Shown here: piece after piece, positions 1 to 3,000 of the stretch | Layout: each line of letters starts with the position of its first letter | Position numbering within the stretch: position 1 is the first letter of the stretch | Source of the DNA: a virus | Lineage: Duplodnaviria > Heunggongvirae > Uroviricota > Caudoviricetes | Length of the DNA: 7,118 bases | IMG/VR virus record: IMGVR_UViG_2548876695_000012 | Direction: 5' to 3' (one strand) | Made by a program: the position numbers

Positions 1-3000
1 ACGTGTATTTTTAGTCATCCTGTTTACCTCTTTCTCAGGGAGTTTAGTCTCCAGGATTCCCGGGGCGGTTCAGATAATCTTAGCATTGACCGCCTTTATA
101 TAGAAGCTGTTATTCAAGAAGCATTTTCAAGCAGTGATGTAAGAAAATATTACACTATTAGAAAATCTGGCATGAAATCATCATTGAACCTAACAGAGAT
201 CGAGTATAAAGAAATATTGAAGTCACACCGCAATATAAATGGAATCGATAATTCTGGTTTTACAACTGAAACAAATGAAGCTGTTTTGGCTGCACTATCT
301 GCGGAGGTAAGGGGATGCTAACTCCATACAAAAGAGCTGATGTAGAATTCGAATGGATTAGTGATCTAGAAGAACAGGGTTGTTTTTCAAAAGTATATCT
401 GGCTCATGACAGACACCTAGCTCATGACTTGGTGATTAAAGAAATAGAAAAAAAAGAAAACACTAACCACGACGACTACTTTAATGAAGCAAGGCTTCTC
501 TATAAACATGCACATCCAAATATTGTGCAAGTTCAGTATGCTGCTCAATGTGAGAGCAATATCTATATAGCCATGCCATTTTATCATAATGGTTCGCTAA
601 ACCAATTAATGAAAAAAAATAATCTTACAAGCAGGGAGATAATACGGTATTCCATTCAATTTTTAAGTGGACTTTATCATATACACTCAAAAGGTCTTAT
701 GCATTTTGATATAAAACCTAATAACATTATGATATCAAACAGAAATGAGGCCATGCTATCTGACTTTGGATTATCTCAGTTAGTCAATGAGGAATCGAGA
801 GCTGCGCCTGAGTTTGGATATCATTTTCATGTGCCACCGGAATATTTTTCTTTATCAACAAATGATTATAATTTCACATATGACATATATCAGGCAGGAT
901 TAACCATATATAGAATGTGTGTTGGACATGATAATTTTGAAAGAGAAAGATCTGCATTTAGCACGATTGAACAACTCAGAGAGTCGATAATTAATGGCTG
1001 CTATCCATTAAAAGAGTATCCTCCCCATATACATAAAAAATTAATAACAATAGTGAACAAATGCATTCATGTAGATCCAAATGAAAGATATCAATCCGTA
1101 CTAGATGTACTAAACGATCTCTCAGCTATAAGTGATGGCGTTCTTGACTGGCGTCTACAGATGACGAAACCAACTAACGGCACATGCGAATGGCAAAAAA
1201 AGTCTGGGGACGCTATACTGTCTATAGTTTTTGACGCAGAAAATTCGTCTACTACTGGTTTTCGTTTATACGATGATGGGCGGAAAAGGCGTGCTACGAA
1301 CTTAACAATATCCTCAGGATGTACCCCTACAAAACTGTATAGGTTATTAAAGGATAACTGATCATGAAAAAGCGCGAGGAAGTAAGCAAGCTGCCTCGCA
1401 GACGTGATGCAGCATTAGCGGTTCCCTACAAAAAAGATGAGTTCATAAGTCCTTCTGATGACAAAAAATTTTCAAAGGCGAAAAGTTTTACATCTACATC
1501 TCTAAAAGATAAATACTTTAAAATCTAGCCCGGCCTCAGCGCCGGGTTTTCTTTGCCTCACGTTCGCCCACCTAAAAAACATAACCAATTGTATTTATTG
1601 ATGTAACTCGCTAAACCATGCAGTTATGATCCCTGCCGCATAACCTTCATCAGCCACATTTTCAAAAATAAATTTCCTTATATATCAGAATCATACTTCG
1701 TAGAGTTAATAAATCACCAAAATTCGTACCAATAGTTCTTGATAATGTCGAACTATTGGTTCATTATTATCGTCGTCAGCAGGACGCATTACTCACCAGG
1801 GCGGTGAATATACAACGATTCGAATATGAATCTACGGCGCTGACAAAGCGCAATAACCAAAGTGAACTTTGGGGTGTGGTGAAGGGTTCATGGACGGGAA
1901 TATGTCGCACGTAAAGCGGCGAGGCCTGCGGGACTATTGCCGAATTGAAGTAGGCCGAAACAGGTCGAAATGGGTCTCCCACCTACCACACCACCAAAGT
2001 TCATCAGGAGGTCTATATGACACGCAGAACTCAGTTCAAAGGCAATTCACGTTCTCGTCGTCGTGAGCGTTTAAAGGCAAAGGCATTAGCTAACGGCGTG
2101 CTGGCCCGCGAAGAAGCAATAAGTTCAGAAGTATTACACCGCCCTACTCTAAGTAGAGCGCAGATTCAGGCTAAAGGTACTCACGAAACGCCTGAGCGCA
2201 TAGAAGACGCTAAGCCAATTAAGTTCATGGCACAGGACGTGATCTGGCAACAGAAAGAATACAGACGCAATCTGGAGCGAGCGGCCATTGTGTACGCGAA
2301 TGAGTTTGGACATAAGCAACCAGAAACTGGTGTATGTCTTCCAAACGTAGCTCTTTACGCGGCAGGCTACCGGAAATCAAAACAACTGACAGCAAGATGA
2401 CTTGTGTTGGTCGCCAGAAAATGAAATTAGGCAGCAAACCACTTATTTGAGGTGAGATATGACAAAATCATGGAGCGTACCTTTTCCTGAATCAGAAACT
2501 GAACATGATGGAATGCCTGTTTTCTGGAGATTCCAGGCGACAGTTGAAGAAGATGGGATAAAAATATTCGCACTTCAATATATAGCTTTTCATCAGACAG
2601 AGCATTATGCATGGTTGGTTCCTGCGCATTGGATTGTTAATTTTAAACCAGCACCAAATCAGTGGTTACAGGAATGGAAACAAAAGAGAAATAGATATGC
2701 AATTAAGAAAGTAGCAAAAAATGCAGAAAGATCTTTTGCATTCCCAACGAAGAAACTTGCCATTGAAAGTTTATTGCGCCGGAAGAAATACCATTTAATG
2801 AGAATCAAACAAGATTTGGCTGTTGTATCAACTCTTGTTGATGGGATGAAGAATATTGATACATCAATACCAGATATTGAATATAACTTTGGACACAACC
2901 AAGAAACAGAAAATTGGGTATTTTATTAGTACGAATAAGCACTGTGTATTCATTCCAGCGAGTGAATACACGGAGCAATGTCGCTCGTAACTAAACAGGA

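What the first reader, a model, noticed from the sequence alone, without database searches (positions are those of the whole stretch)
1..321. Upstream kinase-partner gene truncated by an IS insertion
The frame ending at 321 is open all the way back to and through the IS terminus at 72, with 82 stop-free codons in AT-rich sequence, and its stop overlaps the kinase ATG. This suggests a larger first gene of the module whose 5' part and promoter were removed by the IS. The module may therefore be inactivated or driven only by IS read-through, and the intact system would have at least three genes.
Basis: inference. Interest (0 to 1): 0.5.

Follow-up and report, generated by a model that had tools for sequence, protein, structure and literature searches.

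The report
IS-split partner gene of prophage kinase
A mobile insertion sequence has cut in two the gene just upstream of a prophage anti-phage kinase (Stk of Shiga-toxin phage 933W); that gene encodes a RuvC-shaped protein without the RuvC catalytic residues, found next to this kinase in 69 of 70 species examined.

Summary
Window 1-72 is the end of a 1310-bp IS3-family element. Positions 73-75 (GAT) are its 3-bp target duplication. Positions 73-321 hold codons 72-153 of 933W gene L0083 (phi24B 'res'), a 153-codon gene that is contiguous in 39 phage records and 217 complete E. coli genomes.

The 5' half was not deleted. It lies 1.3 kb upstream, beyond the IS, and now ends at the IS's TGA. The insertion also separates stk and the small ORF L0081 from pRM. 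The transposase reads away from stk, and no credible promoter remains upstream of it.

Only 6 of 5,426 genomes carry this junction. A seventh has gone further, with an IS-adjacent 2,263-bp deletion that removed stk.

The insertion itself is ordinary prophage decay. The more interesting result is the obligate pseudo-RuvC partner of a kinase that is catalogued as acting alone.

The parts
1..72 (-). Left-end terminus (IRL side) of a 1310-bp IS3-family insertion sequence (IS629-like by my recollection). The reverse complement of window 1-18 encodes the first six transposase codons (MTKNTR), so the transposase reads leftward, away from stk.
   Evidence: RefSeq annotates an IS3-family transposase with a programmed frameshift on the minus strand. 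The element is 1310 bp, with ends TGAACCGCCCCGG...CCGGGGCGGTTCA.
73..75 (.). GAT, the right-hand copy of the 3-bp target-site duplication. It is also codon 72 (Asp) of L0083.
   Evidence: The left flank in the source genome ends ...AAACTCTGAT|TGAACC, and the right flank begins GGTTCA|GATAATCTT. 933W has a single GAT here.
73..321 (+). 3' remnant (codons 72-153 plus stop) of 933W L0083 / phi24B 'res', the RuvC-fold partner gene of the Stk module. It probably makes no functional product: no ATG or GTG lies upstream in frame, and the only upstream in-frame start candidate is a TTG at -20 with no Shine-Dalgarno. The first ATG (172, Met105) has no SD and is not conserved.
303..307 (+). GGAGG Shine-Dalgarno sequence for stk, lying inside the 3' end of L0083. 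It means stk translation does not strictly need coupling to L0083.
   Evidence: sequence 291-320: TGCACTATCTGCGGAGGTAAGGGGATGCTA.
315..1361 (+). stk, a eukaryotic-like protein kinase of 348 aa, 100% identical in DNA to 933W stk. It has a kinase domain plus a roughly 60-residue C-terminal beta-sheet/helix domain. The catalytic motifs are intact (K42, HFD130-132, DFG150-152).
1364..1528 (+). L0081, a 54-aa basic ORF and the third gene of the module. Homologs follow the kinase in Proteus and Klebsiella modules. Distant modules have an ORF of similar size in the same position.
1527..1548 (+). Intrinsic terminator (tM/tRM) that ends the pRM transcript and so marks the 3' limit of the operon.
73..2335 (.). 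The interval deleted in sister strain 99E2750 by an IS-adjacent deletion: L0083 remnant, stk, L0081, tM, pL/nutL and N codons 1-106. Its presence here shows the window is an intermediate stage of decay.

Best explanation
SHOWN:
- Window 73-321 is the 3' 82 codons of L0083 ('res'), a 153-codon gene of 933W-type prophages.
- A 1310-bp IS3-family element inserted after codon 72 with a 3-bp (GAT) duplication.
- The 5' fragment, 1.3 kb upstream, now encodes exactly residues 1-72, because the IS begins with TGA.
- The 3' fragment has no credible start codon.
- In intact phages the transcription unit is annotated as pRM - cI - L0084 (DUF3024) - L0083 - stk - L0081 - terminator. The IS therefore also sits between stk/L0081 and their annotated promoter, with its transposase gene pointing away from stk.
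- L0083 belongs to a family with a full RuvC fold in which Arg replaces catalytic Asp7 and Arg/Lys replaces Glu66.
- That family is immediately followed by an Stk-family kinase in 69 of 70 species loci, usually with a 45-65-aa ORF after the kinase, in otherwise unrelated neighbourhoods.

INFERRED:
1. About 0.65: in this lineage the partner protein is lost and stk/L0081 transcription is strongly reduced by polarity. The Stk abortive-infection module would then be non-functional, and the later deletion in a sister strain would be the next step of decay.
2. About 0.35: in the intact module the RuvC-derived protein is a non-cleaving sensor or regulatory subunit. It would bind branched DNA, a phosphate group or a phage protein through its remodelled basic pocket and gate the kinase, which then kills or arrests the infected cell by phosphorylation. 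The small basic protein would act as inhibitor or substrate.
For: Truncation and insertion:
- uninterrupted 153-codon gene in 39 phage records.
- base-level junctions, 1310-bp insert, GAT duplication.
- 5' product is residues 1-72, and stk is identical to 933W.
- the upstream half differs from 933W at 1 base.

Rarity and lineage:
- 6 genomes carry the junction, 217 have a contiguous gene, 225 carry the gene at all.
- an identical IS at the identical left junction, plus a 2,263-bp adjacent deletion, in strain 99E2750.

Real gene:
- 429 clusters at 50% identity, almost all of 148-175 aa.
- Riley et al. 2012 (PMC3342100) report spot P2 at 17,096 Da, equal to the mass I calculated for L0083, with lysogen-type RT-qPCR expression.

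Fold and active site:
- model pLDDT 93.
- three alignments in the same register place R7 on D7 and R65 on E66.
- R7 in 68/68 and 122/123 sequences and never Asp; position 65 always R or K.

Linkage to the kinase:
- 69 of 70 loci, starts overlapping or within a few bases.
- r = 0.87 between the pairwise identities of the two proteins.
- variable neighbours that include many known defence genes.

Promoter and expression:
- no promoter match at >=9/12 with normal spacing upstream of stk.
- PMC3681748 and PMC8008677 state that Stk is lysogen-expressed and aborts HK97 infection.
Against: - No expression data exist for the IS-bearing strains. stk keeps its own strong Shine-Dalgarno, and pRM transcripts could in principle read through the 1.3-kb IS on its antisense strand. 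Only one weak terminator-like site was found there.
- The residue mapping onto RuvC rests on weak sequence alignments (hhalign E ~1e-3, Pfam 14.2 bits) together with the fold match. I could not inspect model coordinates, so E68, E82, E87 and E140, which are invariant or nearly so (E68 121/123, E140 118/123), could form an unconventional active site.
- As I recall it, Friedman et al. 2011 obtained HK97 exclusion with cloned stk. The paper is not held, so this is unverified. If true, the partner is not strictly required for that phenotype.
- One locus (L080) has the RuvC-like gene without a kinase.
- The proteomic identification of L0083 had a non-significant MASCOT score.
- Homology of L0081 to the third ORF of distant modules could not be demonstrated.
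Confidence: 0.8

Rival explanations
1. The frame at 73-321 is not a truncated gene. Instead a short standalone gene starts at ATG 172 and the IS sits in intergenic DNA.
For: ATG 172 heads the only ORF that a mechanical ORF caller lists here (49 aa).
Against: All uninterrupted relatives have a ~152-153-codon gene spanning the insertion point. Met105 is not conserved and has no SD. The frame is open well beyond chance upstream of 172.
Confidence: 0.01
2. L0083 is a genuine RuvC-type Holliday-junction resolvase serving phage recombination, as PHROG, phi24B and some RefSeq annotations say. On this view it merely neighbours stk, and its loss affects recombination rather than the kinase.
For: Full RuvC fold. 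phrog_3875 is labelled 'RuvC-like Holliday junction resolvase'. phi24B annotates 'resolvase'. Some RefSeq records say 'RuvC family protein'.
Against: - Catalytic D7 is Arg in 122 of 123 divergent members and never Asp; E66 is R or K.
- The Pfam RuvC score is below the gathering threshold (14.2 vs 22.2 bits), and a profile search of the PDB does not find RuvC.
- The gene lies in the lysogenic pRM operon rather than among lytic recombination genes.
- It is tied to the kinase in 69 of 70 loci, many of them non-phage.
Confidence: 0.05
3. The partner is an antitoxin-like inhibitor that keeps a toxic kinase off. Its disruption was tolerated only because the same insertion also cut stk off from its promoter.
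For: The genes are tightly overlapped and co-inherited, as in a toxin-antitoxin pair. The kinase is reported to cause abortive infection. The one insertion both truncates the partner and is polar on stk. stk was later deleted in a sister strain.
Against: At 150 aa and with a conserved, charged 'active-site' pocket, the protein is unlike typical small labile antitoxins. The 54-aa basic third protein is a better candidate for an inhibitor. No toxicity data are available here.
Confidence: 0.2
4. The partner is the effector: a nuclease with unconventional chemistry that Stk switches on by phosphorylation. On this view Stk is the sensor and L0083 does the killing.
For: Nuclease-derived fold. E68, E82, E87 and E140 are invariant or nearly so, and S91/S92 are invariant among close relatives and could be phospho-acceptors.
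Against: Two basic residues occupy the positions of two metal-ligand carboxylates. S91 and S92 are not conserved in the wider family. Published summaries attribute exclusion to kinase activity itself.
Confidence: 0.1
5. The module still works in this lineage. stk and L0081 are transcribed by read-through or a weak junction promoter and translated from their own ribosome-binding sites, and Stk alone is enough for exclusion.
For: stk is 100% intact with a strong SD. A GATAAT -10-like hexamer is created at the junction at 73-78. No strong intrinsic terminator lies on the read-through strand of the IS. PADLOC treats similar kinases (PD-T4-6) as single-gene systems.
Against: - The junction -10 has a poor -35 at 19-bp spacing.
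- 1.3 kb of untranslated antisense IS RNA after a premature stop would be expected to provoke Rho-dependent polarity. This follows from established knowledge and was not tested.
- Near-universal linkage argues that the partner matters.
- The sister-strain deletion shows that stk is dispensable in this background.
Confidence: 0.3

Closest known systems
The cI-L0084-L0083-stk-L0081 (pRM) operon of Stx phages 933W and phi24B
   Same: Window 73-1361 is 100% identical to 933W. Gene order, the overlapping L0083 stop and stk start, and the terminator are the same.
   Different: Here L0083 is split by a 1310-bp IS, so stk and L0081 are uncoupled from pRM. The window's prophage also lacks the ea10/ssb gene that 933W has between L0079 and cIII.
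RuvC Holliday-junction resolvase (PF02075; PDB 1HJR, 4LD0, 6LW3)
   Different: The catalytic tetrad is not conserved: D7 becomes an invariant Arg and E66 becomes Arg/Lys. Sequence similarity is below family thresholds. The gene is always paired with a protein kinase.
Single-gene kinase defence systems (PADLOC PD-T4-6; Staphylococcus Stk2-type abortive infection)
   Same: A eukaryotic-like Ser/Thr/Tyr kinase encoded on a mobile element that is reported to abort phage infection. Stk matches PD-T4-6 profiles at E = 1e-37.
   Different: This kinase subfamily is flanked almost invariably by a RuvC-fold gene and usually by a small ORF. Neither of these has a PADLOC model. The best PADLOC hit is actually mad6 (6.7e-50), so subfamily identity with PD-T4-6 is not established.
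Lambda rexA-rexB
   Same: Occupies the same position: exclusion genes transcribed with cI from pRM in the lysogen, lying between cI and pL/N, and causing abortive infection of heterologous phage (established lambda biology; cites both together).
   Different: The proteins and mechanism are unrelated (a kinase rather than an ion channel).
IS629 / IS3-family insertional inactivation and adjacent deletion in STEC genomes
   Same: A 1310-bp element with TG...CA ends, a 3-bp duplication and a frameshifted transposase, present in many copies per genome (26-30 places in the junction-bearing genomes). A sister strain shows the classic IS-adjacent deletion.
   Different: Nothing unusual. The name IS629 rests on my recollection of its terminal sequence and length and was not checked against ISfinder.

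Membership tests
RuvC resolvase family (PF02075) | RNase H-like RuvC fold (beta-beta-beta-alpha-beta-alpha-beta-alpha core, about 150-170 aa) | tested here: met
RuvC resolvase family (PF02075) | Catalytic acidic tetrad (E. coli D7, E66, D138, D141) | tested here: not met
   R7 aligns to D7 and R65 to E66 (hhalign, in the same register as Pfam and NCBIfam hits). R7 is present in 122 of 123 sequences and is never D; position 65 is always R or K. Only E140 plausibly matches D141, and that part of the alignment has low confidence.
RuvC resolvase family (PF02075) | Sequence score above the curated family threshold | tested here: not met
   Pfam 14.2 bits against a gathering score of 22.2. NCBIfam 12.5 bits against 163. 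A family profile finds no RuvC in the PDB.
RuvC resolvase family (PF02075) | Dimeric, Mg2+-dependent cleavage of Holliday junctions | not testable with these tools
   Needs biochemistry.
IS3 family insertion sequence (IS629-like) | 1.2-1.5 kb element with terminal inverted repeats ending 5'-TG...CA-3' | tested here: met
   1310 bp, with ends TGAACCGCCCCGG... and ...CCGGGGCGGTTCA.
IS3 family insertion sequence (IS629-like) | Short (3-4 bp) direct target duplication | tested here: met
   GAT on both sides and single in 933W.
IS3 family insertion sequence (IS629-like) | Two overlapping transposase frames joined by a programmed -1 frameshift | tested here: met
   RefSeq annotation of the source genome: 'IS3 family transposase, programmed frameshift'. 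I did not re-derive the frameshift site myself.
933W Stk abortive-infection kinase | Sequence identity with 933W stk and intact kinase catalytic motifs | tested here: met
   100% DNA identity. Pkinase E = 2e-46. K42, H130-F-D132 and D150-F-G are invariant in the family.
933W Stk abortive-infection kinase | Expression from pRM in the lysogen | tested here: inconclusive
   True of intact phages according to PMC3430580. Here a 1310-bp IS lies between pRM and stk, and no expression data are available.
933W Stk abortive-infection kinase | Activation by, and exclusion of, phage HK97 | not testable with these tools
   Known only from literature summaries.
PADLOC PD-T4-6 (single-gene kinase defence) | Match to a PD-T4-6 kinase profile | tested here: met
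   E = 1e-37 for PDLC04042, though mad6 scores higher at 6.7e-50.
PADLOC PD-T4-6 (single-gene kinase defence) | Acts as a stand-alone gene | tested here: inconclusive
   This subfamily is flanked by a RuvC-fold gene in 69 of 70 loci. Whether the flanking genes are needed for function was not tested.

The most novel reading that the evidence does not exclude
The 933W Stk kinase is not a single-gene defence but the catalytic core of a widespread three-component cassette: pseudo-RuvC, kinase and a small basic protein. On this reading a RuvC-derived protein that has swapped its metal-binding carboxylates for arginines serves as a non-cleaving sensor or regulator, for example of branched phage DNA or a phosphorylated ligand, and gates the kinase. 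The junction-bearing lineage (one member is typed O45:H2) would then be a natural partner knockout.
Probability: 0.35. Interest if true: 0.65.

Novelty: new member of a known kind. Interest (0 to 1): 0.4.

Why it matters
1. Annotation. The remnant at 73-321 is unannotated in RefSeq, and intact copies are variously labelled 'hypothetical', 'resolvase' or 'RuvC family protein'. The evidence here says it has a RuvC fold but is not a canonical resolvase.

2. Defence-system catalogues. The best-known prophage kinase defence (Stk of 933W) and similar kinases are treated as single genes. The 69/70 linkage to a pseudo-RuvC gene, which has no PADLOC model, suggests the functional unit is larger. This can be tested directly with in-frame deletions.

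3. STEC biology. IS-driven decay of a lysogen-expressed exclusion module follows a visible series: intact, then insertion, then adjacent deletion. That could change which phages can superinfect these strains.

The insertion event itself is routine.

Tried and rejected
- Primary papers on Stk (Tyler & Friedman 2004, PMC415781; Friedman et al. 2011) are not held, so whether stk alone suffices for exclusion could not be checked.
- Literature searches for a described RuvC-like plus kinase defence system found nothing relevant.
- A profile search of the PDB with the L0083 family found no RuvC. hhalign in global mode gave nonsense. Local mode gave only a weak but register-consistent alignment.
- The afdb50 fold library was unavailable.
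P0001, 93% identical, was used instead.
- Promoter scans upstream of stk gave nothing at the tool's threshold and only chance-level matches when relaxed.
- Homology between L0081 and the third ORF of distant modules could not be shown (phmmer no hits; hhalign probability 1%), so I claim only conservation of position and size.
- L0084 (DUF3024 / PDC-S43) was considered as a fourth module gene and rejected. It accompanies the module only in 933W-like phages and Proteus.
- A whole-model fold search of Stk returned only generic kinases. The C-terminal domain could not be searched on its own.
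Full report
**What is at 1-321.** Window 1-72 is the end of an insertion sequence. The source genome is E. coli 2011C-4251 (NZ_CP027388), and window 1 corresponds to locus L003 position 6001. There, RefSeq annotates an IS3-family transposase with a programmed frameshift on the minus strand. The reverse complement of window 1-18 encodes its first six codons, MTKNTR, so the transposase reads leftward, away from the kinase.

Aligning the window and its upstream flank to uninterrupted phage 933W shows a clean insertion. Identity to 933W starts at window 73. The upstream flank ends at the same three bases. The insert is 1310 bp with ends TGAACCGCCCCGG...CCGGGGCGGTTCA, and GAT is duplicated on both sides. 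The name 'IS629' is my recollection of that terminal sequence and length. It was not checked against a reference.

Frame 1 is open from beyond the window's left edge to TAA at 319-321. Positions 73-318 make 82 codons, and the stop overlaps the kinase ATG at 315. At 35.4% GC the chance of 82 open codons is about 0.001. Only 23 of 20,000 shuffles stayed open, and the other two forward frames have 8 and 9 stops.

Thirty-nine phage records carry 73-1361 at 99-100% identity with no IS. In 933W the region is annotated as a 153-codon gene, L0083, whose stop overlaps stk. phi24B calls the same gene 'res'. Window 73 is the first base of its codon 72.

- The 5' half still exists 1.3 kb upstream in the source genome. 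Because the IS begins with TGA, it now encodes exactly residues 1-72.
- The 3' remnant has no ATG or GTG upstream in frame. There is only a TTG inside the IS with no Shine-Dalgarno. The first ATG (172, Met105) has no Shine-Dalgarno either and is Ile or Leu in most homologs.

**Operon context.** In 933W and phi24B the annotated unit is pRM - cI - L0084 (DUF3024) - L0083 - stk - L0081 - terminator, followed by pL/nutL and N.

- The terminator is at window 1527-1548.
- Riley et al. (PMC3342100) found two lysogen-restricted products encoded downstream of cI. Their masses (17,096 and 13,472 Da) equal what I calculate for L0083 and L0084. The MASCOT scores were not significant.
- The IS therefore does two things. 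It destroys L0083, and it places 1.3 kb of antisense IS sequence between pRM and stk/L0081.
- No promoter-like site at 9 or more of 12 matches with normal spacing lies upstream of stk. Relaxed scanning gives only chance-level matches, including a junction GATAAT with a poor -35.
- stk itself is 100% identical to 933W and keeps a strong GGAGG at 303-307.
- Polarity on stk is therefore likely but unproven.

**How common it is, and what happened next.** Of 5,426 complete E. coli genomes, 225 carry L0083 and 217 have it contiguous. Only six have this exact junction, one of them typed O45:H2. The operon upstream of the IS differs from 933W at one base, so the insertion is recent.

A seventh genome, strain 99E2750, has the same prophage with an identical 1310-bp IS at the identical left junction. 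There the IS abuts window 2336. A 2,263-bp IS-adjacent deletion has removed the L0083 remnant, stk, L0081, the terminator, pL/nutL and N codons 1-106. A second IS copy splits cII. The window is thus an intermediate in a decay series: intact, then insertion, then deletion.

**What L0083 is.** It is a real, conserved protein.

- There are 75 clusters at 90% identity and 429 clusters at 50% identity at E <= 1e-3, nearly all 148-175 aa.
- An AlphaFold model of a 93%-identical member is confident (pLDDT 93).

So the 'RuvC-like' label is right about the fold. The catalytic tetrad is not conserved, however. Three alignments in the same register (Pfam, NCBIfam, hhalign) place Arg7 on RuvC Asp7 and Arg65 on Glu66. 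The E. coli RuvC sequence I used was verified against 1HJR.

- Arg7 is present in 68 of 68 species-level sequences and in 122 of 123 divergent representatives. It is never Asp.
- Position 65 is always Arg or Lys.
- R47, R78, E82 and E87 are invariant, and E68 and E140 nearly so.
- The Pfam RuvC score is below threshold, and a family profile does not retrieve RuvC from the PDB.

I therefore do not file L0083 as a RuvC resolvase. It is a RuvC-derived family with a remodelled, strongly constrained pocket. It is most simply read as a non-canonical and probably non-cleaving protein. That last step is inference.

**It is the kinase's partner.**

- In every context first examined, the L0083 homolog directly precedes a Pkinase gene. 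These were a Klebsiella Rac-like prophage, Proteus lambdoid prophages with different repressors, a Terasakiella integrase island, and a metagenomic contig beside Wadjet genes.
- A scan of one genome per species returned 70 loci, from alpha-, beta- and gammaproteobacteria plus a cyanobacterial MAG and a myxobacterial MAG.
- In 69 of these, a full-length Stk ortholog (35-61% identity) starts within a few bases of the partner's end on the same strand.
- Pairwise identities of the two proteins correlate at r = 0.87.
- A 45-65-aa ORF follows the kinase in about two-thirds of loci and shares loose motifs. Homology to 933W L0081 is demonstrable only within Enterobacterales.
- L0084/DUF3024 is not part of the conserved unit.
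- Flanking genes are otherwise unrelated. They mix housekeeping genes, integrases, repressors and transposases with known defence genes such as Avs1, dGTPase, DarG, AbiEii, LmuA, type I restriction, CBASS and DRT. This is the pattern of a mobile defence cassette.
- The RuvC-like protein and L0081 have no PADLOC model. Stk matches mad6 and PD-T4-6 kinase profiles.

**Mechanism.** According to the literature available to me, Stk is expressed in the lysogen, has little activity until HK97 infects, and then causes abortive infection (PMC3681748; PMC6356687; PMC8008677).

My proposal, with about 0.35 confidence, is that the pseudo-RuvC protein is the sensing or regulatory subunit that gates the kinase, and that the small basic protein is an inhibitor or substrate. 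The rivals are an antitoxin-like inhibitor (0.2), a phosphorylation-activated effector (0.1) and a genuine resolvase that is merely adjacent (0.05).

For this window, the best-supported functional reading (about 0.65) is that the module is disabled. The partner is truncated to a 72-residue fragment that lacks half of the fold, and stk/L0081 are cut off from pRM.

**Verdict.** The finding is real and correctly interpreted in its essentials. The event itself is ordinary IS-driven prophage decay. The added value is the demonstration that the truncated gene is an obligate, RuvC-fold but non-canonical partner of the Stk kinase family. The existing 'resolvase' annotation misdescribes it, and defence catalogues omit it.

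Noticed in passing
L084 (NZ_CP157170.1, strain 99E2750), relative to window 73-2335: Same prophage with an identical IS at the identical left junction, but the IS abuts window 2336. A 2,263-bp IS-adjacent deletion removed stk, L0081, pL/nutL and most of N. A second copy of the IS splits cII.
   Followed up: yes
L001 2379-2720 / L003 4138-4479 (just upstream of the window): L0084, the DUF3024 gene between cI and L0083, matches the PADLOC candidate defence family PDC-S43 (E = 4e-41). It remains intact and attached to pRM in the IS-bearing strains. It is not linked to the kinase module outside 933W-like phages and Proteus.
   Followed up: partly
window 3108-3166 (+): Rfam match to the lambda cIII thermoregulator RNA element (88.5 bits, gathering score 50), at the start of cIII.
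   Followed up: no
window 2017-2400 (+): An intact 127-codon N antiterminator ORF, 98% identical to 933W N, with 5 of its 7 differences clustered in its last 50 bases. RefSeq nevertheless annotates only its last 69 bases, as an 'incomplete' pseudogene. The annotated stub begins at window 2332, within a few bases of the 99E2750 deletion endpoint (2336).
   Followed up: partly
window ~2930-3120 vs L001 5857-6449: The window's prophage lacks the ea10/ssb gene that 933W and phi24B carry between L0079 and cIII. This is a mosaic difference from 933W.
   Followed up: no
protein P0071 (NCBI, 87 aa): L0083 residues 1-61 followed by an unrelated 26-residue tail. This is a second, independent disruption of the same gene at a different position, somewhere in public data.
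   Followed up: no
L080 4001-4456 (Sphingomonas MAG): The only one of 70 species loci where the RuvC-like gene is intact but no kinase follows. It could be an orphan, a decayed module or a MAG assembly artefact.
   Followed up: partly
window 1180-1358 (Stk residues ~290-347): Stk has a confident C-terminal four-strand sheet plus helix after the kinase domain. The only full-length Foldseek alignments were to AMPK alpha subunits (kinase plus C-terminal regulatory domain), which hints at a regulatory or docking domain.
   Followed up: partly
L002 3034-3114 (= window 106-186): GenBank record AP004402 annotates three 'putative operators' and a 'maintenance promoter for CI' inside the L0083 coding sequence. 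They match no promoter consensus in my scans and look like an annotation artefact.
   Followed up: partly
L022 4465-4757 (Pseudoalteromonas sp. ASV78): In this locus the kinase ORF starts about 290 nt after the partner gene and lacks its first ~88 residues. This may be a frameshifted or decaying copy of the module.
   Followed up: no
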